NCBI GenBank assembly: GCA_041660605.1
Contig: JBAZWB010000001.1
Location: 265,295 to 329,294 of the forward strand
DNA: 64,000 nt
Direction: 5' to 3'
From: Patescibacteria group bacterium
GTDB lineage: Bacteria; Patescibacteriota; Patescibacteriia; UBA10025; JAHIVO01
The notes under the pieces were generated by a model, which did no database searches, was not told the origin of the DNA, and saw only the letters and a program-made list of their open reading frames with translations. The position numbers and the translations under genes are program-made. Positions 29,195 through 46,370 of this stretch are shown here, in pieces (positions within the stretch are counted from its first letter, which is position 1; each line of letters starts with the position of its first letter).

Positions 29195-29216
29195 TAAATT
29201 CGCCGGACTAAACTTC

Positions 29217-29672
29217 ATGAGCGTTACTGAAGACATTGAAAAGAATATTAAAAAAGCCATGGTGGCTCATGACGAGCTGACTCTGTCTGTTTTACGGATG
29301 GCGAAAACCGCCATACATAATAAGGCGATCGCTCTGAAGAAAAAAGAATTGACTGAGGAAGAAGTGAAGAAAATTCTTTTGACTGAGGCGAAAAAGCATC
29401 ACGATTCCATCGCCGCCTTTGAGCAGGGCGGCCGGCAGGAACTGGCAGACAAGGAAAAAAAGGAGCTCAAAGTATTGGAGGAATATCTACCGCAGCAGCT
29501 GGATGAAGAGGAGACCAAAAAAATTGTTCAGCAGGTAATCGAAGGTTTGGATGACGCGCAGAAGAATTTCGGCACGGCCATGAAAATGTGCATGGCGGAG
29601 CTGAAAGGCCAGGCGGACGGCCAACTGGTATCGCGACTCGTTAAAAACGCGTTAGCGCCATCCGCCGAATAA
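29217..29672 (+). CDS. GatB/YqeY domain-containing protein
   Basis: 151-aa helical protein with motifs typical of the YqeY family (TLSVLRMAKTAIHNKAI, HDSIAAFEQGGRQELADKEKKE). Confidence 0.8.
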   Translation: MSVTEDIEKNIKKAMVAHDELTLSVLRMAKTAIHNKAIALKKKELTEEEVKKILLTEAKKHHDSIAAFEQGGRQELADKEKKELKVLEEYLPQQLDEEETKKIVQQVIEGLDDAQKNFGTAMKMCMAELKGQADGQLVSRLVKNALAPSAE

Positions 29673-29718: not shown

Positions 29719-32700
29719 ATGGGAGGCAGAAATAAAAATAAATTCATTACGGGGGCGGTTGTAGGATTAATTTTCAGCTTAGCGCTGATAGCTATGGCTG
29801 TTTTTGTCCTGCCAAATGCCGTCTCCGCCCAGGCGACTATTAACAGCGAGCTAGGGACGACTTTTGGTTTGGGCACGGCGGGCCTGGAATCGACAGTAAT
29901 AAAGATCGTCCAGTGGGCGCTCGGCTTCCTCGGGCTGATAGCGGTGATCATGATCATCTACGGCGGCGTGGTTTGGATGACCGCGGCCGGCAACACTGAT
30001 AAGGTAGCTAAGGCCAAGAAAATAATCATCCGCGCGGTGATCGGGCTGGTGATTGTTCTCTTAGCCTGGGCGATCGTCATGTTTATCGTTGACAGGATAA
30101 ATAAAGCCACCGGTGGCGGCGGAGATTTTTGCGATCCTCATTATTTTGGACCAAATTGGCCGGCTGACGCGGAGGTACGCTCGGACGGCTGTGCCTATTG
30201 CAATGAAAGCGGTACCGGCTGGATAGTTATCCCTGGCTGCGTCACTTTGCCGGATACCGACACTTTCCGCGTCAAATGGGTGGATCCGACTGACGGCGAA
30301 CATGACGTGCCTTTGTGCAGCATCGTGCAGGCCAAGTTGAACGGTAAAGTTGTGCCCGCTTCCATCGCTGGTAATGTTGGGCTGTATGTTAACGGTGCCA
30401 CGGCTAAAGGTGGCGATGCGTGTCTTGCCAACAATGAATGCATGTCTGGCGTTTGCGATATTGGCGGCACTAACCAGTGCGTGGGCGATGAAGTCGCCGG
30501 CAACTGGCAGGTTTCACCTGACCAGACAATCATAGAATTTTTACCGGCTACCGATTATCTGGAGAATCAGTGGTACCGGGCGGAATTGAGGAGAAATACC
30601 CCAGGGAATCCGGTTATTATCCAGGAAGACGCCGCTGATCCGCGTGATTTCGTAACTAAAATATGGATGTTTACTACCGGCATTACGACTTTGGATGTGC
30701 CTCCGACCGTGACTACAATATATCCAGCTGATGGTGAAGATAAAATTTGTTTGAACACCGCCATCCAGTCAATATTTTCCAGTAAAATGCGGGCCGCTTC
30801 AATGAACGCCAGTACTATAAAATTGGCTGAGGCCGGGACAGGAGATTACGGAATTAACATTAACGATCATACAAGTAATTCTTTTTCCGGCCGTCCGGCC
30901 AAACTTTTAAACGCCGGTAAAGAGTATAATGTTACTTTAACTGCCGGAGACCCCGGGAATAATGATCCGAATAACGGTGTTATGGACGTTTGTCTGAATC
31001 ATCTTGATGGCGATGCGGATACTGTTGAAGAAGGCACGGCCGGTGGCGATAATTTCCTTGAAACGGTACCGCCAAGCTCCAATCCCACCTTTACGGATGC
31101 GCCCTGGAATTTCTTAGCTGATACTGACACTACCAATGATAAATGCATACCGGAAATAACCGACATTGTGCCGGCTAATGGCAAATATGATAGCACCGCG
31201 GTAGATATACAGGGCGTGAATTTTGGTATTATTGGTTTCACCTATTTTAATAAAGGAGTAATTAATGCAGGGAATTGTTTTGACGGGGGGGGATGGCCTA
31301 GATTAGAATGCGTCAACAGCTGGTCGGGCAATAATATAAACATTCACGTGCCTGGCGGTCCGATCAACGGCGGCCAGAAAGCAGTGCCGTATAACGGCGC
31401 GGCCGATGGGCCGGTATCCGTGGAAGTGGCTGGCAAAACCAGCAACAATTGGACTTTTGACGTAGCCAGCCCGCAAATATTAAAAGCCATCGGCTTTAAA
31501 AACAATCGCCACGGCGGTACTGACCAGTATGTTACCCTGATCAGCCGTTCTGATACTGACGGTGGTTTCGGTGATAATACAGGTACGGTGGTTTTCCGGA
31601 GTTTTCAGCCTCCCTACAATGTGGTTACTGCGCCTTTCCCTCCTGATCCGCCTTGTGACGCCTCCTGGGCTAATGACCAGGTGATTATTAAAGTACCTGA
31701 TCTGACAGCCACGCTAGGCGTTCCCGCTTGCCCGGTGGCCGGACCCGCTGACTGGGTAAGTTGCCTGAATACTCCTTCCATGGTGGGTATTCAGCTTATC
31801 AGGAACGGAGGTGATCGTAGCAATATAGTTAATTTTGTCTATACTAATGAAGAAGCCGGTCCGGGTTTGTGCGCCATTCAGCCGCAGCAATGCGGTACGG
31901 GCGGTGAGACCGTAACTGCGGTGGGCCAGAAATTTCTTGCTCAGACTCCTGCGAGCCGAGTGCATTTTTCCGCCATCCAAGCAGTAATAAATAGCTGGAC
32001 ATTGAACCTGGTGACCGGAGACAGCGCGCAGGTTACTGTGCCAAGCCTTGATAACGCTGAAGATTATCTGGTGACGGTTTCAAATTCCGTTGGCACAAGT
32101 AACCCCTTGCTCTTTGACGTACCGTGCGGCCTGATACCAAAAGTGGTGGAAGATTCCTCCTGCGAAAATTATTGCCAGCTTGATCCTACCCTTAAGGGCT
32201 GTACTGAAGACATAGACTGCGGCGTTTCCGGTCCCTGCGTCACCGGCATTTCCTCGCCAAATCCGTATAAAGGCAATACTGACGTCTGCGTCAATGTTAA
32301 CGCCGCGGCGTCTTTTAATACTCTGATGGACGACGCCATGCTGACTGACGGCAATCTGGTCTATCTGCAGAAATGCAATGATGATAATTGCTCGGATGTG
32401 GATCCGGCCAAGGTGGCAGGCGCTTTGTCGGTATTTATCATTGACCCCACTCACGAAGGCGTTGAGTTCAATCCGGCTGTTAACCTTGATCCCTCAACAA
32501 CATACCAGATGACTATCCAGAAAGAAGTGCAGAGCGAGGCTGGCGCGCACATGAATAATGATTACAAGTGGCATTTCAAAACTAAAGACAGCATTGAACC
32601 CTGCCCGGTGGAGAAAGTGGTAGTTGCTCCGAACAGCGCGATTTTATATAATCTTGGAGACACTCAGAATTATTCCAGCTTAGCCCAAGGTCCGAACTGC

Positions 32701-35700
32701 ACCATCTTAGATCCCAACGACTATACCTGGGCCTGGACTTCGGAGGATTTTGGAATTGCCAGTGTTCCGGTGCCCAGCAGCATAACGCGAAATGAAATCG
32801 CCACCGCTACCGGCCTAGGCACTACTTATATAAAGGCCAGCATTCCCGCGGAAAGCAAGAGCGGCCGGGGCAGGCTGAAAGTTGATCCGGAATCCTGCGC
32901 TTTTAATCCTGATCCTGGTTACTGTGCTAACCCCGGTGGCGGTGTAACCTGTCCAGGCAGCTGGTGCGATTTACTGGCTGACAAATGCATGCCGGTGATT
33001 ACTGAGCGATCCATACCGCCGGATATACCGCCGAAGGAAATCACTCCACCCCAGGGACCAGCGGGCACTACGGTTTCTATTGAAGGCTGCTGGTTTGGCA
33101 GTAAAACCGGTCAGGTGATTATTGACCAGGCAGCAACTTTTGAATGCAGTAATTCCTGGTCAAGTAATTTGATCGTGGCGACTACTGATCCCTTAATTCC
33201 TACTGGTAATAAGCCGGTGGAAGTATTGACAGCTTACGGCCGATGCAACGGCGGCGACAGAGACGGCCGGTTATGCACGGTGGTAGGAGAATGTCCCGGA
33301 GCCGCGTCATGCGATAAATTTTCCAATATGATTGACAGCGGTCAAAGCGGAGCGCTTAGTAAAAATTTTAATGTTACTGACAGATGTTCCGGATATTGCG
33401 ATCCTAACATCAGCCCGGCGGAATTTGCCAATGCTCCTTGCGTTGATGATAGTAATTGCGATAATGTCCCCCTCAGCTGCAAGAAAGTGCTTCCGACCGG
33501 CGGCATACCGGGTATTTGCCCGCCTTTACAGCCGTCTGCGGGACCGGAGCTGACGCATGTATATATTGAAGGCTTTAATCTTTTGCCTGATAACGCGCAG
33601 ACTGTAGATGATTTGGTTTATTATCCACGAGGTAAGTCAGACACTCGTGATGATATAATTTTTTCATATTTGGAAAAATGGACCGGTACGGCTATCGATA
33701 GAAGCCGTGTGCCGGTTGGCGCGGAATCCGGCGCGGTTAACGTGCTGGTGGACAACTGCCCCTCAAATTCTCTGCCTTATGCCGTGACCTGCACTAACAA
33801 CATCCAGTGCGGTACGGGCTGCTGCGCTGATCCCGGCACGGGCCAGAAGATGTGCCTGCCTTTTGATCCATATTGTCTGTCTGGTACCATGCAGCCATGC
33901 CAGATAGAAGAAAATACCGACACTCCGGAATCTCCCGAAAATCCCAACTGCACTTCCGGCCAGATCTGGAATCCGGGTAATTATATGTGTATCAGTACCA
34001 CAGGCGATACTTCTCATGAATTTCCGGCACCGCCAGAAGATGCCACGCATCTATTCGGTACCGACTGCCGCGTGTGCTGCGACGCCAATCCGCCGCAGGT
34101 GTCAGCTTCAGGCTTGACCTGCCGCGCGGACAAAGGCGACTGCAGCGGCACCGAGCGCGGATTGTATTGCGGCTGTGACCCTGCAATTCCCGGCCAATGC
34201 GGAGCGGGCTTCGGCTGCAGCGCCAAAGACACCTGCTGCTATCCGGAACCCGTCATTGATCATGTCATACCTGATCCGTTAGCGGGCAATCTGCTCTGCA
34301 CCAACGTGGTTATCCGGTATTACTTCAATGAAGTCATGGATACGGAGACCATGAATACCGCCAATATTATAGTAACTGATGGCACAGATCCAATCGCCGG
34401 AAAAATAGATATCCATAAAAATAAAAAGGGTTTTGGTTTTGTCGCGGATAAACCGTACACACCCGGCCAGCAGGTGCATATCGAGGTAACGACCAATGTC
34501 AAGAATAAATACGGCGTGGGCATGGCGGGTTCTGATTCCAGGATTTGGACTATTGATCCGGCCGCGTCCCTCTGCGCCATTAACCAGATTGATTTTACGA
34601 TCATTACCACCGGCGCGCCGCCGACTTATGATCCGCCGGACGTGTTTCGCTGCGCCACGGATAATTGCAGCGGAGACATGGATCCCGCGCCGGGTACGGG
34701 CAACGAGCATGGCATCACGGCCTATGCCTATGATAAAAGAGGCCTGGAAGTGGCAGCTACCTATCAGTGGCAAGAAGAAGATGACGCGAATGTTATTGCC
34801 ATTGACCAATTGGCCGTAGGCACTGATAACGCTATCACCGCGCAACCCAATAATGGCAAAGCTAACATAGTAGTGACGGCTACCGAGCAGTACGTTGGCG
34901 ATTCGAAACTAACCGATAAGGCCAGAGTCAGCGTGATGCTGTGCGAAAAACCCTGGCCCAATCCGTATGCGCCGGAAATGGATCAGTTTCCTTTTGAGGA
35001 TTCTGACCGCAATCCGCCGGCTACCTGGAAACCGGACACCATTTTCCATACAAATAATTTTATTGCTAATTACAGCATCTGGTATTGCCGCGATTCCGGC
35101 AATCCGCCTTTATTAGAGCGCACTGATCAGGTAACAGTCCGTGACGGCTCGCCGACGGATCCGGACATAGTCAAGGAATACTTTTTCCTCAGGCCTGGCA
35201 CCAGTACGGACGGCATCGGCATTATTGTCGCCGACAATCCTGATAATAAATCTCCGGAGCAATGGTATCGGGATAAATTCGGCGCGGCCGCACCAGCGCC
35301 CCAGAGTCTGACAGTGGACGGCTATCCGGCGGTCAGAGCCGGCCGTACCGTTTATGTCGGCGTGCCGAACCTGGTAGGCGGAGCATTCCATCAATATATA
35401 TATTTATTATCTCATGACCAGGAGGCTTCAGATGAAACGCTGGATATCTACAACCGCCTGCTGGCCAATTGGGAGTTTAATGTTAATGTTGATCCGGCAC
35501 AAAAGGCAGCTTTGCAGCGCGATTTGCAGAGAATCAATAGCTTGGAGGAAATTTACGGCAAAATGCTGGCTTATAAGAATAAAAATGGCTTTTTCCCCAA
35601 ACTTGAAGGCGGTTCGTATATCCAGCATTTGTCCAATTCCAAATGGCCTTCCTGGCAGGAGACGCTGGGGTCCAGCATTAACAGTCTGGGCTTTATACCG

Positions 35701-38700
35701 CATCAGGCGCCGTTCCTGGAAAAACTACGCGGTTTATTTGTTAAAAACGCGGTCGCCCAATCCGGCCTGGCCGTTGATCCGTTGAATAAATTTGATTTGC
35801 CCGACCCCTCGCTGCCCCCGCAGTGCCTGGAGGACAACGGATTTAACCAGGATACCTGCTGGAATGAAACAAAACATTTGTATGAATGTCCGGCCAATTC
35901 AAATATTTACCAATATATGGTGGATGCCAATGGCGACAATGCCGCGCTCTATGCCCGGATGGAATACAGCGGTGCCGATAGTTTTGCAAATTATTTTGGG
36001 GGCGATCCTTGTACCGGCATAACCGGCGCCACCTGCAACTGCTTTAATTATGTATTGGGCGTAACCGGCAATCTGGCTGATCACGAAGGTCCGGAAATCC
36101 AGGGGGTGGACGCCTTGGGGGCCGGTGTGAACTGGATCAGCAGCACCCGGCCACTGGGCGTGTTAGTCGTTGACAAGCCAGACCTTAATCCCAGCGGCGT
36201 CAACCGGGTGGAATTTTTCGTTGACGGCATTAGGAAATTCACGGACAGCGACGGCACTGGTCCGGGCTGGTCCTGGGATTTCGTTTCCACGCAGTATGCC
36301 GACGGCGACCATAAGATTTCTGTGACTGCCTACGATAATGTTGGTAACTGGACCACGAAAAATTATGACATTAAAATCGACAATTCCAGCGGAGCGGATA
36401 CTACCGATCCCTTCATCGCCATCGCCCGGCCGGGAAACGGCGCTTCGGTCAGCGGCAAAGTCATCATTGAAGCGCAGGCCAGCGATAACCAGGTGCTGGC
36501 GCAGGTGCAGATTTCAGTTGAGGGCGCTTCGGCTAACTGGGTCTGTCCTGGCGGCGGTTCAAGCATGACCTGTACGACAGCCATCCCGAATCACTGGAAC
36601 ACCGCAGCACTTGACGCTGATGGCAAATATATCTATCCCAATGGCGAATATACCATCAACGCCACGGCCACAGACGCAGCCGGCAACAGCCGCACTGCCA
36701 GCATAAAAGTGAAAGTAGCCAACAGCGATTATACCGCACCATCCGTTGTTTTGACCGCGATATATAACGGCGGTCCGGATCATTGGAATAATGGAGATGT
36801 CATACCTGGCGCTATTGCGTACGCCCAGGGTCCGGGCGAGGTGTGGGTCTGGGTGATACCTACTGACGACCAGGGGGCTGACCAGTTCTACAAGCCCGGT
36901 CGCGTGAAATTCTACGTTGATGGCATCTATCGCGCTGACGGGTCAAATGATAATGGCGACCAGGTGTGGGAATGGGCGCCATGGAACACCCTGGAATACT
37001 CCAACGGACTGCATGAACTGACCGTCTATGTTTATGACGACGCGGGCAATATGGCCAGCGATACCTGGTATATTACGCTGAATAACGCTCAGTCAGACAT
37101 GGAACCGCCGGTAGTTAATTTTAGAAATGCCAAATCCAATCCAACAGGGAGAACGCTTTTAAATGGCCAGCCAGCTACGCAAATCATATATATTGATGCC
37201 AGCGCTTCAGATAATATCGGCGTTACAAAAGTTTATTTTTATCGCGATTATATATTGCGATCCGAGGTCATTGTTCCGGATCCAATGACAGGCTACTCCT
37301 GGATGGTTGATACTAATGCAATTTCGCCGGGTTGGCATACTTTTCAGGTGGACGCGGAAGACGCGGCGGGAAACCGCAGCGACGCCATTGAGATACGCCT
37401 GAATATCGGCGGCGGCGGCGCTCCAATTTGCGGCGACGGCATCATTACCAACTTTACTGTTCCGCCGGAACAGTGCGAGCTGATCGGCTACACCCCGCCG
37501 CCTGATAATCAGCCTATTTACAGCATGAACGGCGAGACCTGTAAAACATTGGGCTATGGCTGCGGCACCCTGGGATGCAATCCGCCCCTCTCCGCTAATG
37601 AGTGCCAGTTTGATGTTAGCCAATGCAAAAACTCCGTTTGCGGTGACGGTAAGATCGAGTGCGGCGAAACCTGTGAAAGTGTATCGGACTGCCCGGCCGC
37701 GCCTAATGCTTGTTCTACTATTAATTGCAATAGTTGCGACTGCTCTTACGATCAGAATTGCACCAACGCGCCGGGGTGCGAGCCTGGTACCCTTACCTGG
37801 TGCGCCAACTGCAACCACTGCAACAATAAGATCAAGGATTGCGATGAAACAACCACGGATTGTGGCGGCGCCATGTGCCCGACCTGCGGATGCACGCCAG
37901 GAAACCAGCGATGTACAGTAACCTCACAGACGCAGGTCTGCAATAACCTCGGCGTCTGGGTAAATGAAGCGCAAACCCTGCCTACCTGTACTGCCCCGCC
38001 TAGTTATCCTTTCTGGCAGGGCGATTGTAATTTGGGCTCAACATCAGGTTGCTATTCTGGCACTGTTTGTAAAACCTCGGGAGCTACCGATGCTCACTGC
38101 GAAAGTAATCAGGCCATACAATGTACTGCAGCCTGCCAGACTGGTTGGTCACTGGCTTATAACCAGTGTTGCGTCACCCAGCGATGTAATACCGGCCCAC
38201 CTCTACACACGGAGAAATTTGTAAGCGGTTCCTGGGTTGATGAACCCCAGGGTACACCAATTTGCAGTATGGCCAATGGGGCCAATTGGGATGGAAATTG
38301 TGTTATGGGTAATAGCTGCTACAACACTACAATCGGTTGTATGATGACTGGCGGCGGAACAGATGCTAAGTGCGTGAATACAAGCGTCAACCCATTCCAA
38401 TGCGTGGCCGCTTGCCAGAGTTCATTTCTAGCCGCGTATAACCAATGCTGCGCCGTATGCGTTGACGGCACAAAGCAGGATTGCGGCGCTACGAATACTG
38501 ATGTTGGCGAATGCAATATCGGCGAGCAGACCTGCGTCAGCGGCGCCTGGGGACCCTGTACCGGCGAAATTCCTTCGTCGCCGGAAATTTGCACTGGCGG
38601 CAAGGATGAGGACTGCGACGGCGCTATTGATGCTGCGGATACGGATTGCGCCATGCAGTGCAATCAAGCCTGCAACCCGCCCAGTATAAATTGCGCCAGC

Positions 38701-39771
38701 CCCTTGATCTGCAGCAGCGGTTTATGCCGCAACAGCGCCTGCCCTCTCCAAACTGATTGTATTTGCCCTACTATTCTATATACTATTACGCTGACCTGGA
38801 GCGGGACCACGGATCTTGACCTCAATTTATTGAGAAGCGATCTCAAGCGCTGGTACTGGGGGCACCCTGACATTGATGAAGGCATAGATTGGAATAATAT
38901 TAACTCTAATACGGAGGTTATAGAAATAACTGCAGAACAAAGCAGTTATCCTAACGATTTTCAAATACTCATACAGAATAGCGCCGTACCAACAGCGATG
39001 ATCCCCAGCGGTACGAGGGTGGATATTATGGATAATATACGCAGTTTGACTTATACTTATAATTCTCCGGATATGTGCCGCAGCAACAGCAGTCCTATCT
39101 GGCAGGTCGGTGAATTTAATTTCAGTGGTGGCGTTACACCAAATGTCAGCAATGCCTATATGCCCGCGCCTTTCCCGGCCACTTATCCCAGCGTGCCATA
39201 TCAGCAAGCTTCAGGCTCTTGCTGCGCTAATATAACCCAATGTCAGTCAGGGCTCTGCTGTAATGGTGGCTCGCCAGGTGTCTGCGGCGCCTGCTCCTCT
39301 TGTTTTGCTAACAATGGTTCCTGCGAAGTGGCACCGGGTTATTCCTGTGATGAGGTGAAGGACTATAGTGATCCGGATAATAAAGACTGCAAACAGAATT
39401 TTATAGATTGCAAAACTTGGTGTAGCGATAATTATTGCGACAGCATGGGAAATTGCACTGGATTTCTGGTCAGGATGACATATCCGGTTGCGACATATCA
39501 ATATGAACCGGGGAAATGCTATGATCCGTGGAGAAGCGGTGACCCTCAGGATCAATGTTATATTAGTATGGCTTGTGGCGGATATGCTTTTTATGGGCCG
39601 AATAATGAAGCGACGCAATGTTGCCACCCAGCCTCGACTAATCCACCTGGAACTCCGCTTGGTTATGGATGTTATTGCGGACGCGATGTACCGGTTGGCC
39701 CGCCTGTGGATCCAAATCCAGAATGTTTAATCGCCAGTTGCAATGGTCCGAACCTATATGTTTGCGAATAA
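29719..39771 (+). CDS. giant (3350 aa) Cys-rich cell-surface protein; N-terminal VirB2/TrbC pilin-like membrane domain, central Ig/beta-rich region, C-terminal Cys-rich repeats
   Basis: The single uninterrupted ORF is GC-richer than its neighbours. The N-terminus has a signal-anchor plus two hydrophobic helices split by a short basic loop (IYGGVVWMTAAGNTDKVAKAKKIIIRAVIGLVIVL). The C-terminal ~700 aa hold CGDG cysteine-rich repeats, CDGxDxDCDG-type motifs and a ~91-aa Cys-rich unit repeated about 2.5 times (DNA ~37900-38480). Antisense ORFs inside the gene are spurious. Confidence 0.9.
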   Translation: MGGRNKNKFITGAVVGLIFSLALIAMAVFVLPNAVSAQATINSELGTTFGLGTAGLESTVIKIVQWALGFLGLIAVIMIIYGGVVWMTAAGNTDKVAKAKKIIIRAVIGLVIVLLAWAIVMFIVDRINKATGGGGDFCDPHYFGPNWPADAEVRSDGCAYCNESGTGWIVIPGCVTLPDTDTFRVKWVDPTDGEHDVPLCSIVQAKLNGKVVPASIAGNVGLYVNGATAKGGDACLANNECMSGVCDIGGTNQCVGDEVAGNWQVSPDQTIIEFLPATDYLENQWYRAELRRNTPGNPVIIQEDAADPRDFVTKIWMFTTGITTLDVPPTVTTIYPADGEDKICLNTAIQSIFSSKMRAASMNASTIKLAEAGTGDYGININDHTSNSFSGRPAKLLNAGKEYNVTLTAGDPGNNDPNNGVMDVCLNHLDGDADTVEEGTAGGDNFLETVPPSSNPTFTDAPWNFLADTDTTNDKCIPEITDIVPANGKYDSTAVDIQGVNFGIIGFTYFNKGVINAGNCFDGGGWPRLECVNSWSGNNINIHVPGGPINGGQKAVPYNGAADGPVSVEVAGKTSNNWTFDVASPQILKAIGFKNNRHGGTDQYVTLISRSDTDGGFGDNTGTVVFRSFQPPYNVVTAPFPPDPPCDASWANDQVIIKVPDLTATLGVPACPVAGPADWVSCLNTPSMVGIQLIRNGGDRSNIVNFVYTNEEAGPGLCAIQPQQCGTGGETVTAVGQKFLAQTPASRVHFSAIQAVINSWTLNLVTGDSAQVTVPSLDNAEDYLVTVSNSVGTSNPLLFDVPCGLIPKVVEDSSCENYCQLDPTLKGCTEDIDCGVSGPCVTGISSPNPYKGNTDVCVNVNAAASFNTLMDDAMLTDGNLVYLQKCNDDNCSDVDPAKVAGALSVFIIDPTHEGVEFNPAVNLDPSTTYQMTIQKEVQSEAGAHMNNDYKWHFKTKDSIEPCPVEKVVVAPNSAILYNLGDTQNYSSLAQGPNCTILDPNDYTWAWTSEDFGIASVPVPSSITRNEIATATGLGTTYIKASIPAESKSGRGRLKVDPESCAFNPDPGYCANPGGGVTCPGSWCDLLADKCMPVITERSIPPDIPPKEITPPQGPAGTTVSIEGCWFGSKTGQVIIDQAATFECSNSWSSNLIVATTDPLIPTGNKPVEVLTAYGRCNGGDRDGRLCTVVGECPGAASCDKFSNMIDSGQSGALSKNFNVTDRCSGYCDPNISPAEFANAPCVDDSNCDNVPLSCKKVLPTGGIPGICPPLQPSAGPELTHVYIEGFNLLPDNAQTVDDLVYYPRGKSDTRDDIIFSYLEKWTGTAIDRSRVPVGAESGAVNVLVDNCPSNSLPYAVTCTNNIQCGTGCCADPGTGQKMCLPFDPYCLSGTMQPCQIEENTDTPESPENPNCTSGQIWNPGNYMCISTTGDTSHEFPAPPEDATHLFGTDCRVCCDANPPQVSASGLTCRADKGDCSGTERGLYCGCDPAIPGQCGAGFGCSAKDTCCYPEPVIDHVIPDPLAGNLLCTNVVIRYYFNEVMDTETMNTANIIVTDGTDPIAGKIDIHKNKKGFGFVADKPYTPGQQVHIEVTTNVKNKYGVGMAGSDSRIWTIDPAASLCAINQIDFTIITTGAPPTYDPPDVFRCATDNCSGDMDPAPGTGNEHGITAYAYDKRGLEVAATYQWQEEDDANVIAIDQLAVGTDNAITAQPNNGKANIVVTATEQYVGDSKLTDKARVSVMLCEKPWPNPYAPEMDQFPFEDSDRNPPATWKPDTIFHTNNFIANYSIWYCRDSGNPPLLERTDQVTVRDGSPTDPDIVKEYFFLRPGTSTDGIGIIVADNPDNKSPEQWYRDKFGAAAPAPQSLTVDGYPAVRAGRTVYVGVPNLVGGAFHQYIYLLSHDQEASDETLDIYNRLLANWEFNVNVDPAQKAALQRDLQRINSLEEIYGKMLAYKNKNGFFPKLEGGSYIQHLSNSKWPSWQETLGSSINSLGFIPHQAPFLEKLRGLFVKNAVAQSGLAVDPLNKFDLPDPSLPPQCLEDNGFNQDTCWNETKHLYECPANSNIYQYMVDANGDNAALYARMEYSGADSFANYFGGDPCTGITGATCNCFNYVLGVTGNLADHEGPEIQGVDALGAGVNWISSTRPLGVLVVDKPDLNPSGVNRVEFFVDGIRKFTDSDGTGPGWSWDFVSTQYADGDHKISVTAYDNVGNWTTKNYDIKIDNSSGADTTDPFIAIARPGNGASVSGKVIIEAQASDNQVLAQVQISVEGASANWVCPGGGSSMTCTTAIPNHWNTAALDADGKYIYPNGEYTINATATDAAGNSRTASIKVKVANSDYTAPSVVLTAIYNGGPDHWNNGDVIPGAIAYAQGPGEVWVWVIPTDDQGADQFYKPGRVKFYVDGIYRADGSNDNGDQVWEWAPWNTLEYSNGLHELTVYVYDDAGNMASDTWYITLNNAQSDMEPPVVNFRNAKSNPTGRTLLNGQPATQIIYIDASASDNIGVTKVYFYRDYILRSEVIVPDPMTGYSWMVDTNAISPGWHTFQVDAEDAAGNRSDAIEIRLNIGGGGAPICGDGIITNFTVPPEQCELIGYTPPPDNQPIYSMNGETCKTLGYGCGTLGCNPPLSANECQFDVSQCKNSVCGDGKIECGETCESVSDCPAAPNACSTINCNSCDCSYDQNCTNAPGCEPGTLTWCANCNHCNNKIKDCDETTTDCGGAMCPTCGCTPGNQRCTVTSQTQVCNNLGVWVNEAQTLPTCTAPPSYPFWQGDCNLGSTSGCYSGTVCKTSGATDAHCESNQAIQCTAACQTGWSLAYNQCCVTQRCNTGPPLHTEKFVSGSWVDEPQGTPICSMANGANWDGNCVMGNSCYNTTIGCMMTGGGTDAKCVNTSVNPFQCVAACQSSFLAAYNQCCAVCVDGTKQDCGATNTDVGECNIGEQTCVSGAWGPCTGEIPSSPEICTGGKDEDCDGAIDAADTDCAMQCNQACNPPSINCASPLICSSGLCRNSACPLQTDCICPTILYTITLTWSGTTDLDLNLLRSDLKRWYWGHPDIDEGIDWNNINSNTEVIEITAEQSSYPNDFQILIQNSAVPTAMIPSGTRVDIMDNIRSLTYTYNSPDMCRSNSSPIWQVGEFNFSGGVTPNVSNAYMPAPFPATYPSVPYQQASGSCCANITQCQSGLCCNGGSPGVCGACSSCFANNGSCEVAPGYSCDEVKDYSDPDNKDCKQNFIDCKTWCSDNYCDSMGNCTGFLVRMTYPVATYQYEPGKCYDPWRSGDPQDQCYISMACGGYAFYGPNNEATQCCHPASTNPPGTPLGYGCYCGRDVPVGPPVDPNPECLIASCNGPNLYVCE

Positions 39772-39800
39772 TTATCAAATTTGGCCTTAGACTTTTTTCT

Positions 39801-40343
39801 ATGACACAACAAAACATTCCATCAGAGCAGAATGAACAAAAGCAGAAGCCTATTTATCTATGGTTTTTAATGGGTTTGCTTGTCTTGGCCTTGCTTGGCG
39901 GCGGCGGTTATTTGTACTATAAATATGCCAATAAGCCAAATGATAACGCTAATAAAGCTAATGTGAATGGGGCGGTAGTTGCGGAAAAGCACCTTTTAAC
40001 CGCCGAGGACAAGGAGCAATACGGCATCCAGGCCAATCTCAACGGTGAAATTACATATACTAATGTTAACGGAACTCTGATACCCAGTATTGTCATAGAT
40101 CCAAACTCACGTCCGCTTGATACTGATGGCGACCGGCTATCTGATGAAGAGGAAGCCACCCAAAAAACAGATCCCAATAATCCCGATACCGATGGCGACC
40201 TGATATATGACGGCGATGAGGTGTTGGTCTGGAAAACTGATCCCGCTAAGGCCGATACTGACGAGGACGGTTTTGATGACGGTGCGGAGGTCAAAGGAGG
40301 CTACAATCCTCTGGGTACCGGCCTGTTGAATACCGCCCAGTAG
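39801..40343 (+). CDS. membrane-anchored protein with thrombospondin-type-3-like Ca-binding repeats (paralog 1 of 3)
   Basis: The track ORF 39669..40343 starts inside the giant gene. The likely start is the M of MTQQNIPSEQ...KPIYLWFLMGLLVLALLGGGGYLYY (single TM). Repeats follow (DTDGDRLSDEEE, DPNNPDTDGDLIYDGDE, DPAKADTDEDGFDDGAE) and the protein ends GGYNPLGTGLL. Confidence 0.7.
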   Translation: MTQQNIPSEQNEQKQKPIYLWFLMGLLVLALLGGGGYLYYKYANKPNDNANKANVNGAVVAEKHLLTAEDKEQYGIQANLNGEITYTNVNGTLIPSIVIDPNSRPLDTDGDRLSDEEEATQKTDPNNPDTDGDLIYDGDEVLVWKTDPAKADTDEDGFDDGAEVKGGYNPLGTGLLNTAQ

Positions 40344-40425
40344 CATTTTTGATCCTCTAGAATGTAGTATAATATTAAAGGCGGGTAGTGCCGCTTTAAA
40401 TTTTAAACGGGAAAAATAGCATAAA

Positions 40426-41019
40426 ATGCCAAATAATAAACCGATAGAAGATATTTTTGAGGAAGTGGATAAAAGCAAAACACCAAAAAACGGTAAAATA
40501 AAGAACGGAGCAAGAAAACCGAAGCTGGCCCCGCTCGCGCCCCAGTCATTGCCGCCCCTTCAGCCAGAATCCAGGAATACGAAATTGCCGGTGAAAATTA
40601 TTATTTTGGTAATAATCATAATAGTGCTGGCAGGCGGCGGGTATTTTGTTTATAATTATCTGGCTAATCGCGCTGAGGATGATCCGGTAAATGCCGCTAA
40701 CAACAGCGCCGTTCAGCCGGCGACTAACCAGCCGGTGAATTCAGCAGTGCCGGCGATTAATGCCAATACTGCTCAGGATACGGATGGCGACGGGTTGACG
40801 GATGCCGAAGAGAAAGACCTGGGCACCGATCCAAAAAATAAAGACACGGATAATGACGGCCTCTTTGACAGGGAAGAGGTCAAGGTTTATAAAACCGATC
40901 CTGATAATCCGGACACCGACGGTGACGGCATTAAGGACGGCCAGGAAGTTAAGAATGGGTACAATCCGAATGGCCCGGGGAAGTTATTGGATCTGAATTC
41001 AGCTAAAAATAATATTTAA
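40426..41019 (+). CDS. membrane-anchored protein with thrombospondin-type-3-like Ca-binding repeats (paralog 2 of 3)
   Basis: 197-aa ORF with the TM anchor IIILVIIIIVLAGGGYFVYNY. Repeats DTDGDGLTDAEEKDLGTDPKNKDTDNDGLFDREE...DPDNPDTDGDGIKDGQE follow, ending GYNPNGPGKL. Confidence 0.75.
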   Translation: MPNNKPIEDIFEEVDKSKTPKNGKIKNGARKPKLAPLAPQSLPPLQPESRNTKLPVKIIILVIIIIVLAGGGYFVYNYLANRAEDDPVNAANNSAVQPATNQPVNSAVPAINANTAQDTDGDGLTDAEEKDLGTDPKNKDTDNDGLFDREEVKVYKTDPDNPDTDGDGIKDGQEVKNGYNPNGPGKLLDLNSAKNNI

Positions 41020-41032
41020 AAATTTCAATAAT

Positions 41033-42193
41033 ATGGCAGTGCAGGAAAAAAATAATGAAGCGCGTCCGGCAGAACCGGTAAAGCAAGTACGCATCCATAC
41101 CATGCCCAGCAAGTTTTATCTGGACGAAAACAAGTCGGGCAGCGGTAAGAATATTTTTTTAGTGGTTTTTCTCATAATTTTGGCTGTTCTGGTGCTTGGC
41201 GGCGGAGGGTATTTCGCCTATACTAGCTTTTATCAGAATAAAAATCAGAACTCAAATGCCAATTCATTGGCCAATGAAAATGAAGAGGGTGACTTGAATG
41301 ACACCAATAGTTCAGCGAATGCCAATGGCAATAAAAATGCCAATACAAACGGCTCTAATACAAATAATGCCAATAGAACTAATGTAAATGCGGTAGATAT
41401 TAATTCGCTGAATATTTTCAATAATTTGAACCAAAATACCAATACCGGCAATTTTAACATCAATACGGTGGTTAGCAGCGCTGACGCGGATTTAGACGGC
41501 CTGTCGGACGTAGAAGAGCCGATTTACAGTACCAAGATCTCTTCAGCCGATTCTGACGGTGATGGGTTTAGTGACGGCCAGGAAGTCATAAACGGCTATA
41601 ATCCCAACGGTACTGGCAAGCTGGAGCTGAATGCCGGCGTTCTGCGCTATACCGATACAGACGAGAAGTATTCGTTGCTATATCCGAAAACCTGGGTTGT
41701 CAGCGATGACAACCAGACGTCCAGCGGCAAGATTTTTAGCGCTAACGGGCAATTCGTAACCATCAGCGTGGAGCTGAATGCCGCGAAATTATCAGCCCGC
41801 GACTGGTACCTGACCAAGTCGCCAGGAATTGATTCCTCCCGCATTCAGTCAGTCACTAACTGGGACGCGACTTTGGCTGGCGTCAAAAGCATTGACGGGC
41901 TGACCGTTTATTACACGAAGAACGACCAGACATTCATTATCAGCTACAATATAAATATTCTTACTCAGGCTGATTATCTGACCACCTTCGCAATGATGTA
42001 TAAAAGTTTTACGCTGGTGACGGCTAATTTTGTAAATAGTAACGCCAATTCAAATTCTAATACCAGTACGAATTTTAATTTTAATACGAATATTAATACC
42101 AATACAAACAGGAATACAAACTCAAATTTAAATTCTAACGCCAATACAAATAGAAATACAAATTCAAACTCAAATTCAACAAATCACCTATAA
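41033..42193 (+). CDS. membrane-anchored protein with thrombospondin-type-3-like Ca-binding repeats plus extra C-terminal domain and Asn-rich tails (paralog 3 of 3)
   Basis: 386-aa ORF with the TM anchor FLVVFLIILAVLVLGGGGYFAY. It has Asn-rich low-complexity segments, the repeats DADLDGLSDVEE...DSDGDGFSDGQEVINGYNPNGTGKL, and a ~150-aa C-terminal domain. Confidence 0.75.
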   Translation: MAVQEKNNEARPAEPVKQVRIHTMPSKFYLDENKSGSGKNIFLVVFLIILAVLVLGGGGYFAYTSFYQNKNQNSNANSLANENEEGDLNDTNSSANANGNKNANTNGSNTNNANRTNVNAVDINSLNIFNNLNQNTNTGNFNINTVVSSADADLDGLSDVEEPIYSTKISSADSDGDGFSDGQEVINGYNPNGTGKLELNAGVLRYTDTDEKYSLLYPKTWVVSDDNQTSSGKIFSANGQFVTISVELNAAKLSARDWYLTKSPGIDSSRIQSVTNWDATLAGVKSIDGLTVYYTKNDQTFIISYNINILTQADYLTTFAMMYKSFTLVTANFVNSNANSNSNTSTNFNFNTNINTNTNRNTNSNLNSNANTNRNTNSNSNSTNHL

Positions 42194-42633
42194 TGAAGAT
42201 CTGGATCAACAAAGAGACGGGAATCAGAGCAGAGACCGGCTTTTTCAAAAAATTATTCAGGTTGATCGGCCGGCAGTTTCCCCGTTATTCAGGAGCGGAA
42301 ATTTCCGTCGCCCTGGTTAGCGCCAGGACAATAAAAAAATTAAATAAAAAGTACAGGCATAAAAATAAAGTAACGGATGTTCTCTCCTTTGCCGAAAGGG
42401 AATCAAAATACAAAATTGCACCCAGACAATATTTAGGCGAGATAGTGATTTCTATGCCGCAGGCGAGAGAGCAGGCGAGAGAGCATAAACATGCCTTACG
42501 TCGTGAACTGGTGATTTTACTTGTCCACAGTTTTTTACATCTGGTGGGGTTCGATCATGCCACGGACAAGCAGGAAAAAATTATGGACAAGGAGGCCCGG
42601 AAAGTAATGTTGATATACGAAAAAAATTTATAA
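42193..42633 (+). CDS. ybeY: rRNA maturation endoribonuclease YbeY
   Basis: 146-aa ORF with the zinc-binding motif HSFLHLVGFDH. Confidence 0.9.
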   Translation: MKIWINKETGIRAETGFFKKLFRLIGRQFPRYSGAEISVALVSARTIKKLNKKYRHKNKVTDVLSFAERESKYKIAPRQYLGEIVISMPQAREQAREHKHALRRELVILLVHSFLHLVGFDHATDKQEKIMDKEARKVMLIYEKNL

Positions 42634-42644
42634 ATTACTAATAT

Positions 42645-43019
42645 ATGCCAATTTTGGATTTACGGATGTTGGGGAAAAGCTTTCGTTACGCAGCCAGGGG
42701 GTTTTGGTATGTGTTTAAAAACGAACAAAATATCCGGCTTCATATTTTTGCCAGCGCTTTGGTGATAATTTTAATGGTATATTTCGGCGTTTCCCTCTGG
42801 CAAGCCATCATACTCTTCCTGGTCATGGCCTGGGTCGTAGTACTGGAACTGATCAATACAATTTTTGAGAAAATGGTGGATATTTTGCAACCGCGGATAC
42901 ATTTTTACGCTCAGGTGATCAAGGATGTCATGGCCGCCACCGTGCTGGTATCATCAATCGGGGCCGTAATCATTGGGATTTTGATTTTTGGACCTTATAT
43001 TTGGACGGCCAAGCCCTAA
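42645..43019 (+). CDS. dgkA: diacylglycerol kinase / undecaprenol kinase (DgkA family)
   Basis: 124-aa ORF with three TM helices. Motifs NEQNIRLH and ELINTAIE-like (LELINTIFEKMVD) are typical of prokaryotic DAGK. Confidence 0.85.
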   Translation: MPILDLRMLGKSFRYAARGFWYVFKNEQNIRLHIFASALVIILMVYFGVSLWQAIILFLVMAWVVVLELINTIFEKMVDILQPRIHFYAQVIKDVMAATVLVSSIGAVIIGILIFGPYIWTAKP

Positions 43020-46348: not shown

Positions 46349-46370
46349 TAATTAAGTTGAAATATTCTAT

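What the first reader, a model, noticed from the sequence alone, without database searches (positions are those of the whole stretch)
29719..42193. Candidate surface-display module: pilin-anchored giant Cys-rich protein plus Ca-repeat anchor paralogs (system-level hypothesis)
The 12.5-kb co-directional block of giant gene plus three paralogs is flanked by housekeeping genes (rpsU / GatB-YqeY upstream, ybeY/dgkA/ftsAZ downstream). It is compositionally GC-richer. It combines a VirB2-like pilin-type anchor, cysteine-rich extracellular repeats and three Ca-binding, dockerin-like membrane proteins. Together these may form an undescribed adhesion or host-interaction apparatus, potentially co-operating with the type IV pilus genes (pilM, pilT) and the competence genes (dprA, comEC) elsewhere in the window.
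Basis: inference. Interest (0 to 1): 0.7.

Follow-up and report, generated by a model that had tools for sequence, protein, structure and literature searches.

The report
Conserved giant surface-protein module in Patescibacteria
An ultrasmall (Patescibacteria) bacterium encodes a 3,350-residue cysteine-rich surface protein, held in the membrane by a pilin-type hairpin, next to three small calcium-binding membrane proteins; the same gene set sits at the same chromosomal spot in distant relatives, so it is probably one undescribed cell-surface apparatus rather than a chance neighbourhood.

Summary
29719-39771 is one 3,350-aa ORF: signal peptide, a T4SS_pilin (VirB2-like) two-helix hairpin, Ig-like domains and 170 cysteines. 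Three paralogous single-pass membrane proteins with bacterial TSP3 calcium-binding repeats follow, all between rpsU/yqeY and ybeY/dgkA/ftsA/ftsZ.

The co-conservation test passes. In 32 related Patescibacteria loci, yqeY lies upstream in 28. All 15 loci with enough downstream DNA carry at least two TSP3 genes directly after the giant gene, and 14 then have ybeY.

New findings:
- The conserved core of the giant protein ends in a two-part module with no Pfam family: a PsbP/DcrB-like domain plus a type-IV-pilin-like head lacking the hydrophobic helix. About 1,600 protein clusters carry it.
- The PsbP-like domain is homologous to the C-terminal domain of the third downstream gene.
- Each downstream gene type has its own conserved cytoplasmic peptide (EDIF; IHTMPEKF).

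Corrections:
- The higher GC comes from amino-acid composition (GC2), not foreign origin.
- The repeats are TSP3, not dockerin.
- Linkage to pilM/pilT/dprA/comEC is not conserved.
- No virB4 is nearby.

Best reading: a vertically inherited envelope module. The attachment function is inferred, not shown.

The parts
28904..29672 (+). Upstream conserved flank: rpsU (28904-29194) and yqeY (29217-29672). The best promoter-like site of the region (28823-28852) lies just before rpsU.
   Evidence: Pfam S21 and YqeY. The promoter-like site scores 11/12 with a TG extension. yqeY lies directly upstream of the giant orthologue in 28 of 32 related loci.
29719..39771 (+). Giant gene: a 3,350-aa, Sec-exported, membrane-tethered, Cys-rich, multi-Ig surface protein.
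   Evidence: Orthologues of 1,361-3,465 aa occupy the same position in relatives.
29719..30123 (+). Anchor, aa 1-135: signal peptide (aa 1-37, ...AVSA|QA), then the T4SS_pilin/VirB2-like hairpin. The hairpin is TM1 (aa 58-92), a basic loop (DKVAKAKK) and TM2 (aa 96-130). The segment is collinear with stand-alone 110-160-aa pilins of relatives.
   Evidence: PF18895, E 2e-11 and 1.3e-12 on the segment alone. Hydropathy. 40-55% identity to 27 small pilins. NCBIfam pilin-like conjugal transfer protein matches below its cut-off.
30697..34938 (+). Stalk, aa about 327-1740: Big_5 x3, TIG x3, further Ig-like domains, and a Cys-rich insert (aa about 1080-1500) that the short orthologues lack.
   Evidence: Segment-wise Pfam scan. 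BLASTP against orthologues.
35197..35484 (+). PsbP/Mog1/DcrB-like alpha/beta domain, aa about 1827-1922. This is the first half of the conserved, unnamed module.
35485..36063 (+). Type-IV-pilin-like head domain without a hydrophobic alpha1-N, aa about 1923-2115. Motif: RDxxRxxxLxxI...YP.L..GSY...S.WPSWQ..LG...DPxN...C...TCWN...Y.Y...EY...CxCFNY. The short orthologues end here.
36106..37488 (+). Lineage-specific extension, part 1: Big_13, Big_7 and HYR-like Ig domains (aa about 2130-2590).
   Evidence: Shared only with the closest relatives L006, L007, L013 and L014.
37489..39768 (+). Lineage-specific extension, part 2: the distal Cys-rich region (aa 2591-3350, 86 Cys). It includes a tandem pair of about 95-aa modules (aa 2723-2818 and 2819-2911) and a weak PPC-like match.
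   Evidence: Only L013 shows similarity to it.
39801..40343 (+). TSPa: an extra short paralogue of 180 aa, with a short N-terminus lacking the EDIF motif, one transmembrane helix, and three copies of the TSP3 Ca-binding motif.
   Evidence: The same extra copy is present in L013.
40426..41019 (+). TSPb: 197 aa, with a cytoplasmic N-terminus carrying the conserved EDIF peptide (MPNNKPIEDIF), one transmembrane helix, a spacer, three TSP3 repeats and a GYNPNG motif.
   Evidence: The exact EDIF pattern is present in 14 of the 25 short-type TSP3 genes listed for relatives' loci, and two more carry DDMF.
41033..42193 (+). TSPc: 386 aa, with a cytoplasmic IHTMPSKF peptide, one transmembrane helix, an Asn-rich spacer, two TSP3 repeats, a C-terminal PsbP-like domain (aa about 202-330, DNA 41636-42022) and an Asn-rich tail. 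Its stop codon overlaps the ybeY start.
   Evidence: The MPxKF motif is present in 13 of 13 TSPc-type orthologues. hhalign links it to the giant protein.
42193..43019 (+). Downstream conserved flank: ybeY (42193-42633) and dgkA (42645-43019), followed by ftsA and ftsZ.
   Evidence: Pfam. ybeY follows the TSP genes in 14 of 15 loci with enough sequence.

Best explanation
The block is a vertically inherited cell-envelope module of one deep Patescibacteria lineage. The relatives are Kerfeld-, Komeili-, Uhr- and Magasanik-bacteria type genomes. It is not a mobile island.

**Giant protein.**
- It is exported by Sec, and its signal peptide is cleaved.
- It stays in the cytoplasmic membrane through an N-terminal VirB2/T4SS_pilin-type helical hairpin. 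Both hairpin ends face outward and the basic loop faces the cytoplasm.
- About 3,200 residues therefore project from the cell. They form a stalk of Ig-like domains, then a conserved PsbP/DcrB-like plus headless type-IV-pilin-like module. In this organism a further Ig stretch and a disulfide-rich distal tip follow.

**Downstream genes.**
- They encode single-pass membrane proteins. Their outer parts are flexible spacers carrying Ca2+-binding TSP3 repeats.
- The last one ends in a PsbP-like domain homologous to the one inside the giant protein.
- Their cytoplasmic ends carry gene-specific conserved peptides (EDIF and IHTMPEKF).

**Proposed working.** The small proteins form a Ca2+-stabilised, membrane-proximal partner or scaffold for the giant protein. 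The variable distal end of the giant protein contacts an external target, such as a host cell or a surface. The set is probably transcribed together with rpsU-yqeY and ybeY-dgkA.

**Shown:** gene structure, domain content, topology signals, paralogy, conserved order, and the shared domain.

**Inferred:** physical association, Ca2+ dependence, co-transcription, and the attachment function.
For: **Architecture**
- Pfam domains and hydropathy.
- The anchor is collinear with stand-alone small pilins and 40-55% identical to them.

**Conserved order**
- Seen in the first four contexts examined.
- Seen again in the scan of GTDB species genomes. The tally covers 32 orthologue loci.
- yqeY lies upstream in 28 of 32.
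- At least two TSP3 genes follow directly in 15 of 15 loci with at least 2.5 kb downstream.
- The TSPc C-terminal domain is present in 14 of 15, and ybeY comes next in 14 of 15.
- These relatives are distant: HisS is 51-68% identical and the giant ectodomain 22-44%.

**Not an island**
- GC3 is 0.534, within the range of the neighbouring genes.

**Link between giant protein and TSPc**
- hhalign probability 96.9%, E 1.6e-10.
- PsbP hits in 4 of 14 TSPc orthologues.

**Conserved head module**
- The module family has 1,638 cluster representatives at E <= 1e-3. Nearly all the listed ones carry it directly after a signal peptide, so it is extracytoplasmic.

**Operon-like packing**
- Intergenic gaps are 46, 29, 82 and 13 nt, and the TSPc stop overlaps the ybeY start.
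- No + strand terminator-like hairpin lies between the genes, and the best promoter-like site lies before rpsU.

**Cytoplasmic peptides**
- Each downstream gene type has its own conserved peptide.

**Disulfide capacity**
- A DsbA-like oxidoreductase is encoded in the window, consistent with extracytoplasmic disulfide formation.
Against: - There is no direct evidence that the four proteins touch each other, that they are co-transcribed, or that the giant protein binds a host.
- The block is embedded among ribosome, RNA-maturation and division genes and is single-copy at a fixed position. That fits a core envelope or division-related structural role at least as well as a host-specific adhesin.
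- TSP3-repeat membrane proteins also occur elsewhere in these genomes (for example L010, L038 and L082), so the repeat itself is not specific to this module.
- The models rest on an alignment of 24 sequences, and the window's own insert is predicted with low confidence.
Confidence: 0.6

Rival explanations
1. The module is a core envelope or division-associated scaffold rather than an adhesin. The giant protein and the TSP3 proteins would form a Ca2+-cross-linked surface layer or spacer of the cell envelope. The conserved cytoplasmic peptides (EDIF, IHTMPEKF) would tie it to cytoplasmic machinery such as the adjacent FtsA/FtsZ.
For: - The block holds a fixed, single-copy position between yqeY and ybeY-dgkA-ftsA-ftsZ across deep divergence.
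- The TSPc stop overlaps the ybeY start.
- Each downstream gene type has its own conserved cytoplasmic motif.
- The shared PsbP/DcrB/LpqN-like fold is known from envelope-biogenesis proteins. That is taken from the PDB titles of DcrB and LpqN.
Against: - The ectodomain evolves fast: length ranges from 1,361 to 3,465 aa and identity from 22 to 44%.
- It gains lineage-specific Cys-rich tips. This is more typical of exposed interaction surfaces than of a structural layer.
- No known FtsA- or FtsZ-binding motif was identified.
- Gene neighbourhood with ftsAZ could simply be inherited operon context.
Confidence: 0.2
2. The protein is a true T4SS pilus component. The VirB2-like hairpin would be extracted from the membrane and polymerised, alone or with the small VirB2-like pilins, into a conjugative-type pilus. 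The giant ectodomain would then be displayed along or at the tip of a filament.
For: - The PF18895 match is above the Pfam cut-off.
- The first 125 residues are a complete small pilin, 40-55% identical to stand-alone pilins of relatives.
- VirB2-like pilins and T4SS genes are widespread, and in one species essential, in Patescibacteria (PMC12102498).
- From general knowledge of F-type pili: the termini of TraA-type pilins face the outside of the filament, so a C-terminal extension is not excluded.
Against: - No virB4, virB6 or other T4SS gene was found among the window ORFs scanned with Pfam.
- The one small-pilin array examined in detail (L025) lies next to a sugar-nucleotide transferase, a solute-binding protein, DUF2079 and a GT87 glycosyltransferase. 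It includes a T4SS_pilin fused to a peptidoglycan-binding domain. This suggests the hairpin is a general membrane anchor there.
- A 3,200-residue appendage is hard to fit into a packed pilus as a major subunit.
- A profile of the anchor finds no solved VirB2 or TraA sequence.
Confidence: 0.1
3. The neighbourhood has no functional meaning. The giant gene and the TSP3 genes would be unrelated surface proteins that stay adjacent because the surrounding operon is old and rarely rearranged.
For: - The whole region from lepB-hisS to ftsZ-htrA-prfA is syntenic in relatives, so conservation of order is not specific to these four genes.
- TSP3 membrane proteins also occur elsewhere.
Against: - The insert is lineage-specific yet keeps its internal order and gene types in 15 of 15 informative loci.
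- The giant protein and TSPc share a homologous domain.
- Gaps are very short and one stop/start pair overlaps.
Confidence: 0.1

Closest known systems
Small VirB2-like (T4SS_pilin, PF18895) pilins of Patescibacteria, often in tandem arrays (Quinonero-Coronel et al. 2025, PMC12102498)
   Same: - The same Pfam domain.
- The same layout of signal peptide plus two hydrophobic helices with a basic loop.
- 40-55% identity between giant-protein residues 1-135 and 27 stand-alone pilins of relatives.
   Different: - Here the pilin unit is only the first 4% of a 3,350-aa protein.
- The gene is not near virB4 and lies in a housekeeping operon.
- The paper reports small pilins and arrays. A term search of its text (fused, fusion, large protein, anchor) found no mention of pilin fusions to large proteins.
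Giant Ig-repeat surface adhesins of bacteria (e.g. SiiE, Bap/RTX-type adhesins, the Mobiluncus 7,651-aa adhesin; PMC6272769, PMC10619420)
   Same: Very large secreted proteins built largely of Ig-like domains, with Ca2+-binding elements in the system and a presumed distal binding end.
   Different: - The tether is an N-terminal pilin-type hairpin, not a T1SS retention module or an LPXTG/sortase anchor. No LPXTG motif is seen at the C-terminus (read directly).
- No RTX repeats were found.
- The Ig domains are heterogeneous rather than long identical arrays.
- The Ca2+-binding repeats sit on separate small membrane proteins.
Type IV pilins and T2SS pseudopilins (e.g. 4d40, EpsG 4lw9, PilA1 6t8s)
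   Different: - There is no prepilin leader and no hydrophobic alpha1-N.
- The domain is internal, or follows a Sec signal peptide plus a PsbP-like domain in the roughly 1,600 related clusters. It therefore cannot enter a type IV filament in the usual way.
PsbP/Mog1/DcrB/LpqN/Eag (DUF1795-like) fold proteins
   Different: - Sequence identity is 4-15%.
- Pfam PsbP is below its cut-off in the window protein.
- The function of this fold varies widely, so the match names a fold, not a role.
Thrombospondin type 3 repeat proteins of bacteria (TSP3_bac; OmpA-linked TSP3, CglD, MtsD)
   Same: Asp-rich DxDxDGxxDxxE Ca2+-binding repeats, matching PF18884 above its cut-off. NCBIfam gives partial matches to CglD and MtsD repeat regions.
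   Different: These are short bitopic proteins with only 2-3 repeats, conserved cytoplasmic peptides and, in TSPc, a PsbP-like domain. They are far below the full-length cut-offs for CglD and MtsD.

Membership tests
T4SS pilin (VirB2/TrbC-like; Pfam T4SS_pilin PF18895) | Match to the family profile above the curated cut-off | tested here: met
   44.2 bits against a cut-off of 26.6, E 2e-11, aa 59-123. 48.1 bits on the N-terminal segment alone.
T4SS pilin (VirB2/TrbC-like; Pfam T4SS_pilin PF18895) | Signal peptide followed by two hydrophobic helices joined by a short basic loop | tested here: met
   Hydrophobic segments at aa 7-39, 58-92 and 96-130. The loop sequence is AAGNTDKVAKAKK.
T4SS pilin (VirB2/TrbC-like; Pfam T4SS_pilin PF18895) | Small stand-alone subunit of about 100-150 aa | tested here: not met
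   The protein is 3,350 aa. Only residues 1-135 correspond to the pilin unit.
T4SS pilin (VirB2/TrbC-like; Pfam T4SS_pilin PF18895) | Encoded with VirB4 and other T4SS machinery | tested here: not met
   No T4SS component was found among the window ORFs scanned with Pfam. The rest of the genome was not available.
T4SS pilin (VirB2/TrbC-like; Pfam T4SS_pilin PF18895) | Sequence relationship to structurally solved VirB2/TraA/TrbC pilins | tested here: not met
   A profile of 28 anchors searched against PDB sequences gave only two chance-level hits, a GPCR and a Mg transporter, at E >= 0.2.
T4SS pilin (VirB2/TrbC-like; Pfam T4SS_pilin PF18895) | Polymerises into a pilus | not testable with these tools
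   Needs imaging or biochemistry.
Bacterial TSP3 repeat proteins (PF18884) | Asp-rich Ca2+-binding repeat matching the profile above its cut-off | tested here: met
   48.0, 72.1 and 25.3 bits against a cut-off of 25 for the three proteins. The motif D.D.D.h.D..E occurs 3, 3 and 2 times.
Dockerin (type I dockerin repeat) | Match to a dockerin profile, or a paired 22-residue EF-hand-like duplicated segment | tested here: not met
   The Pfam scan at E <= 0.01 lists only TSP3_bac, plus a weak PsbP match, for the three proteins.
Type IV pilin / pseudopilin | Prepilin leader with a hydrophobic alpha1-N helix | tested here: not met
   The domain starts at aa about 1923, inside the protein. No hydrophobic segment lies beyond aa 130.
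Type IV pilin / pseudopilin | Alpha-beta head fold: alpha1-C helix packed on an antiparallel sheet | tested here: met
PsbP/Mog1/DcrB-like fold | Fold match, or profile match above the cut-off | tested here: inconclusive
Sortase- or T1SS-dependent giant adhesins | C-terminal LPXTG sorting signal, or RTX repeats with a T1SS signal | tested here: not met
   The C-terminus reads ...CNGPNLYVCE with no LPXTG or hydrophobic tail. There is no RTX/HemolysinCabind hit.
Horizontally acquired genomic island | Atypical synonymous composition, mobility genes, and patchy presence at the locus | tested here: not met
   GC3 is 0.534, within the neighbours' range. No integrase or transposase lies next to the block. 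The same position is occupied in 28-32 relatives.

The most novel reading that the evidence does not exclude
The module may be a previously unrecognised trans-envelope apparatus of ABY1-type Patescibacteria that combines parts of two pilus worlds.
- A VirB2-type hairpin would serve as a lipid-embedded, possibly extractable or co-polymerising, base.
- A headless type-IV-pilin-like domain, paired with an Eag/DcrB-like domain, would capture or mimic pilins or other hydrophobic helices.
- The partner proteins would couple the surface fibre to cytoplasmic machinery, possibly FtsA/FtsZ encoded next door, through the conserved EDIF and IHTMPEKF peptides.

The roughly 1,600-cluster, Pfam-less 'PsbP-like plus headless pilin' module would then define a new family of Patescibacteria surface effectors.
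Probability: 0.12. Interest if true: 0.85.

Novelty: new variant of a known kind. Interest (0 to 1): 0.6.

Why it matters
Patescibacteria are a very large and mostly uncultured group. All cultivated members live attached to other microbes (abstract of PMC11623550), yet outside Saccharibacteria type IV pili little is known about the proteins that form their contact surface.

**What this locus offers**
- It gives a concrete candidate that is conserved across a lineage: a membrane-tethered giant protein with defined partners.
- Because it sits at a fixed place in the genome, it is easy to find in metagenomes.

**Broader points**
- The Pfam 'T4SS pilin' domain, one of the most abundant domains in freshwater Patescibacteria, is also used as an N-terminal anchor for large proteins. 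Counting it as evidence for a secretion system can therefore mislead.
- The analysis defines an unnamed extracytoplasmic module with about 1,600 cluster representatives, which deserves a family description and a structure.

Tried and rejected
- **Whole giant protein as a database query.** The search timed out. The first 900 aa worked.
- **Conserved C-terminal module as a single-sequence word-indexed query.** It found nothing. A profile of locus-derived sequences was needed.
- **Structure prediction with sequences taken from loci.** I used substrings of proteins returned by the searches instead.
- **PDB sequence searches.** Neither the whole protein nor the anchor profile found any relative.
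- **Structure-library searches.** Foldseek on the whole-module model gave no significant hit. The AFDB library was not available.
- **My first assumption about the small-pilin arrays.** I assumed the arrays in relatives marked T4SS loci. Pfam on L025 showed envelope and sugar genes and no VirB4, so I dropped the assumption.
- **Island hypothesis.** Rejected on GC3 and synteny.
- **Dockerin reading.** Rejected.
- **Conserved linkage with pilM, pilT, dprA and comEC.** Rejected.
- **An A4-profile hit to the polysaccharide deacetylase at 50507-51427.** It turned out to reflect only the transmembrane helix plus Asn-rich spacer, with no shared motif.
- **BLAST self-comparison of the giant protein.** It found no repeats. 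Only a targeted alignment showed the single tandem Cys-rich module pair.
- **Literature searches** for a description of the fusion or the module found none.

Full report
**1. What is in the sequence**

The region holds four co-directional ORFs on the + strand:
- 29719-39771, 3,350 aa;
- 39801-40343, 180 aa. The mechanical ORF starts at 39669, inside the giant gene. Its first 44 codons are an out-of-frame reading of the giant gene's 3' end, so 39801 is the likelier start;
- 40426-41019, 197 aa;
- 41033-42193, 386 aa.

Pfam confirms the flanks. Upstream lie lepB, hisS, a HIT protein, rpsU and yqeY. Downstream lie ybeY, dgkA, ftsA, ftsZ and nrdR.

The closest database relatives of these genes come from Patescibacteria MAGs. 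The nearest found are only 61-68% identical in HisS.

**2. The giant protein**

Hydropathy shows an N-terminal signal peptide and two further hydrophobic helices, aa 58-92 and 96-130. Pfam T4SS_pilin (PF18895) covers aa 59-123 at 44.2 bits against a cut-off of 26.6.

Residues 1-135 align end to end, at 40-55% identity, with 27 stand-alone pilins of about 110-160 aa from related genomes. The protein therefore begins as a complete small VirB2-like pilin, and about 3,200 residues are appended to that pilin's C-terminus.

With a cleaved signal peptide and a basic inter-helix loop (DKVAKAKK), the positive-inside rule places the appended part outside the cell. This topology is an inference.

A segment-wise Pfam scan gives the following map:
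- Big_5 at aa about 327-410, 844-955 and 1511-1605;
- TIG at aa about 478-580, 720-800 and 1107-1170;
- a region without any Pfam family at aa about 1741-2120;
- Big_13, Big_7 and HYR-like Ig domains at aa about 2130-2590;
- a Pfam-less Cys-rich end at aa 2591-3350, with a weak PPC match.

Cysteine makes up 5.1% of the protein (170 residues) and is concentrated in aa 800-1500 and 2600-3350. One tandem pair of about 95-aa Cys-rich modules is clear, aa 2723-2818 and 2819-2911 (z = 15 against shuffles). BLAST finds no other internal repeats. There is no LPXTG motif, RTX repeat or C-terminal hydrophobic tail.

**3. The three downstream proteins**

All three have one transmembrane helix, a low-complexity spacer, and two or three bacterial TSP3 repeats followed by a GYNP motif. 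They are paralogues at 36-37% identity. No dockerin model matches.

Comparison with orthologues shows two conserved gene types:
- *Short type (TSPb).* Its cytoplasmic N-terminus carries an EDIF peptide. The exact pattern is present in 14 of the 25 short-type genes listed, and two more carry DDMF.
- *Long type (TSPc).* Its N-terminus carries (I/V)H(T/V)MP(E/D)(K/R)F. It ends in a globular domain of about 130 aa. This motif is present in 13 of 13 TSPc-type orthologues.

The window's first paralogue (TSPa) is an extra short copy without EDIF. One relative, L013, has the same three-gene arrangement.

Pfam PsbP matches the C-terminal domain weakly in the window protein. It matches in 4 of 14 orthologues, with a best E of 2e-6.

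**4.

The first 900 aa found six orthologues, all with the same combination of PF18895, Big_5 and TIG. Four genomic contexts showed the same order: hisS, HIT, rpsU, yqeY, pilin-anchored Ig protein, TSP3 gene, TSPc-type gene, ybeY, dgkA, ftsA, ftsZ, htrA, prfA.

A scan of one genome per GTDB species returned 80 loci. I annotated them with the window's own proteins as references. The tally is as follows:
- 32 loci carry an orthologue of the giant gene, 1,361-3,465 aa where complete.
- yqeY lies directly upstream in 28 of 32.
- 15 loci have at least 2.5 kb of sequence downstream. All 15 have at least two TSP3 genes directly after the giant gene.
- In 14 of those 15 the second gene has the TSPc C-terminal domain, and in 14 of 15 ybeY follows.
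- Loci with less downstream sequence still show TSP3 genes as far as the sequence reaches.

The records are named Kerfeldbacteria, Komeilibacteria, Uhrbacteria, Magasanikbacteria, Parcubacteria or unclassified Patescibacteria. Several third-party assemblies are labelled 'uncultured Gammaproteobacteria' but have the same gene content.

Divergence is deep. HisS is 51-68% identical to the window, the anchor 41-64%, and the ectodomain 22-49%.

In Komeilibacteria-type loci a second anchor-bearing gene of 520-770 aa precedes the giant gene.

The block is therefore conserved and vertically inherited. From my own recollection of the Bacillus subtilis map, rpsU-yqeY and ybeY-dgkA also belong to one old gene cluster in Firmicutes. 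If so, the module looks like a lineage-specific insert into an ancient operon.

**5. Composition**

The giant gene is 51.1% GC against 46.3% for the window. Its GC3 is 0.534, inside the range of neighbouring genes (0.42-0.60). The excess lies at codon position 2 (0.48 against about 0.35). The TSP3 genes are not GC-rich. The compositional signal reflects amino-acid content and gives no evidence of foreign origin.

**6. The conserved core and an unnamed module**

BLASTP against orthologues shows that the shared core is aa 1 to about 1080 plus aa about 1500-2116. The short orthologues (about 1,400-1,500 aa) end exactly at the CxCFNY motif, near aa 2112. Residues 1080-1500 and 2117-3350 are additions shared only with the closest relatives.

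A profile of the terminal module found 54 proteins at E 1e-62 to 1e-89. In these the module sits directly after a signal peptide. It stands either alone (about 260-300 aa) or ahead of TSP_3, MopE-like, He_PIG, Big_9 or Cys-rich regions. No Pfam family is assigned to the module.

A full HMMER search of 1.84 billion cluster representatives found 1,638 members at E <= 1e-3 and 1,326 at E <= 1e-30.

AlphaFold2 with a 24-sequence alignment gave pLDDT of about 90 for the first half of the module and 60-88 for the second. The structure comparisons gave these results:
- *Foldseek on the whole model.* Nothing was significant. The best hits were SciW and DcrB at E of about 0.02.

The module is best described as a PsbP/DcrB-like domain followed by a type-IV-pilin-like head that lacks the prepilin leader and the hydrophobic alpha1-N. 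Support for these fold assignments is moderate.

**7. A link between the giant protein and its neighbour**

Profile-profile comparison aligns giant aa about 1827-1920 with TSPc aa 237-328, at probability 96.9% and E 1.6e-10. The shared pattern is N-x-x-x-L-S-x-x-x-W-Y ... D-G-x-x-V-Y ... Y-x-x-S-Y-N. The two genes therefore share a homologous extracytoplasmic domain. This is the only sequence-level tie between members of the block beyond their adjacency.

**8. Relation to pili, secretion and competence**

No T4SS component appears among the window ORFs scanned. The window holds only one T4SS_pilin domain.

About 40 loci from the genome scan carry arrays of small pilins. I examined one, L025, in detail. 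There the array lies beside a nucleotidyl transferase, a solute-binding protein, DUF2079 and a GT87 glycosyltransferase. It starts with a T4SS_pilin fused to a peptidoglycan-binding domain. The hairpin thus appears to serve as a general membrane anchor in these organisms. The literature treats the domain as a T4SS pilin (PMC12102498).

pilM, pilT and comEC are absent from all 32 related loci, and dprA occurs in 2. Yet lytR-der-pth, which adjoin pilT in the window, are conserved upstream in 13-15 loci. The proposed co-operation with the window's type IV pilus and competence genes has no comparative support. The pilin-like head domain is an unexpected structural echo of type IV pilins, but it is not evidence of such co-operation.

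**9. Expression signals**

Intergenic gaps are 46, 29, 82 and 13 nt, and the TSPc stop overlaps the ybeY start. The best promoter-like site in 28.3-46 kb lies just upstream of rpsU, and another lies before nrdR. No + strand terminator-like hairpin falls between the genes. These are consensus matches only. Co-transcription is plausible but not shown.

**10. Interpretation**

*Best explanation (confidence about 0.6).* The block is a conserved envelope module. A giant surface protein is tethered by a pilin-type hairpin. Two kinds of Ca2+-binding bitopic proteins act as its membrane-proximal partners. The variable distal part of the giant protein serves contact with something outside the cell.

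*Rivals.*
- A core envelope or division-linked scaffold (about 0.2).
- A true T4SS-pilus-displayed protein (about 0.1).
- Adjacency without function (about 0.1).

*Prior description.* Searches of the paper library found no description of the fusion, of the gene set, or of the 'PsbP-like plus headless pilin' module.

*Verdict.* This is a new variant of known kinds of parts: giant Ig-type surface proteins, VirB2-like pilins and TSP3 repeats. The combination is conserved and previously unremarked. Interest is moderate to fairly high for people working on Patescibacteria cell biology. It is limited by the lack of any functional data.

Noticed in passing
window 281-1910 (+): A membrane-anchored DsbA-like thioredoxin (281-1087) lies directly before prolipoprotein diacylglyceryl transferase Lgt (1110-1910). 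An extracytoplasmic disulfide oxidoreductase fits a genome that exports a protein with 170 cysteines.
   Followed up: partly
window 19050-21197 (-): A pilM-pilT pair sits alone, with no other type IV pilus genes beside it, next to pth-der-lytR. In relatives pth-der-lytR are conserved upstream of the giant locus, but pilM and pilT are not there.
   Followed up: partly
L025:7396-14257 and similar loci L028, L033-L037, L043, L046, L049, L057, L061: Arrays of 2-5 small T4SS_pilin genes in related genomes start with a 300-490-aa pilin-anchored protein. In L025 this protein is fused to a peptidoglycan-binding domain. In L025 the array lies between a solute-binding protein and a DUF2079 membrane protein, not next to virB4. 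The other loci show the same pattern of ORF sizes but were not scanned with Pfam.
   Followed up: partly
L023, L044, L048, L060, L064, L073-L078 (about 1.6-2.3 kb before the giant gene): Komeilibacteria-type relatives have a second gene of 520-770 aa with the same pilin-type anchor, between yqeY and the giant gene.
   Followed up: no
window 40426-40470 and 41093-41120; orthologues in L001-L032: There are short conserved cytoplasmic peptides of unknown role: EDIF at the N-terminus of the TSPb type and (I/V)H(T/V)MPEKF in the TSPc type. I know of no matching described motif.
   Followed up: partly
window 45890-50405 (+): The run nrdR, ribonucleotide reductase large subunit with ATP-cone, ATP:corrinoid adenosyltransferase, DUF4430, DUF6580 suggests a cobalamin-linked nucleotide-reduction cluster.
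   Followed up: no
window 58053-60992 (+): A 23S rRNA intervening-sequence protein gene (58053-58403) precedes comEC. The ComEC competence domain (58435-59940) and its metallo-beta-lactamase domain (59949-60992) are separate ORFs.
   Followed up: no
window 50507-51427 (+) and 41033-42193 (+): Asn-rich low-complexity spacers directly after the single transmembrane helix occur both in TSPc and in an unrelated polysaccharide deacetylase. They caused a spurious profile hit, and they look like a general design of membrane-anchored exoproteins in this genome.
   Followed up: yes
window 3197-3880 (-) and 25677-25938 (+): Two tRNA clusters: tRNA-Met x2 plus tRNA-Leu(CAA), and tRNA-Val(CAC) plus tRNA-Val(GAC). 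No other Rfam family reaches its gathering score in the window.
   Followed up: no
window 8111-8797 (+), 62689-63972 (+), 8891-11317 (-): Two ORFs (228 and 427 aa) have no Pfam match. An 808-aa protein has only a spermine/spermidine-synthase-like domain in its C-terminal part.
   Followed up: no
L008, L012, L013, L015, L017, L020, L026 and others: Several third-party metagenome bins titled 'uncultured Gammaproteobacteria' carry this Patescibacteria-type locus with the same gene order. The record titles are probably wrong.
   Followed up: no
L006:18259-19767 and L007:13576-15078: In the two closest relatives the giant gene (about 2,750 aa) is followed by a separate ORF of about 500 aa with Ig-like similarity to the window's aa 2120-2590, before the TSP3 genes. 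This is either a split gene or a real extra gene.
   Followed up: no
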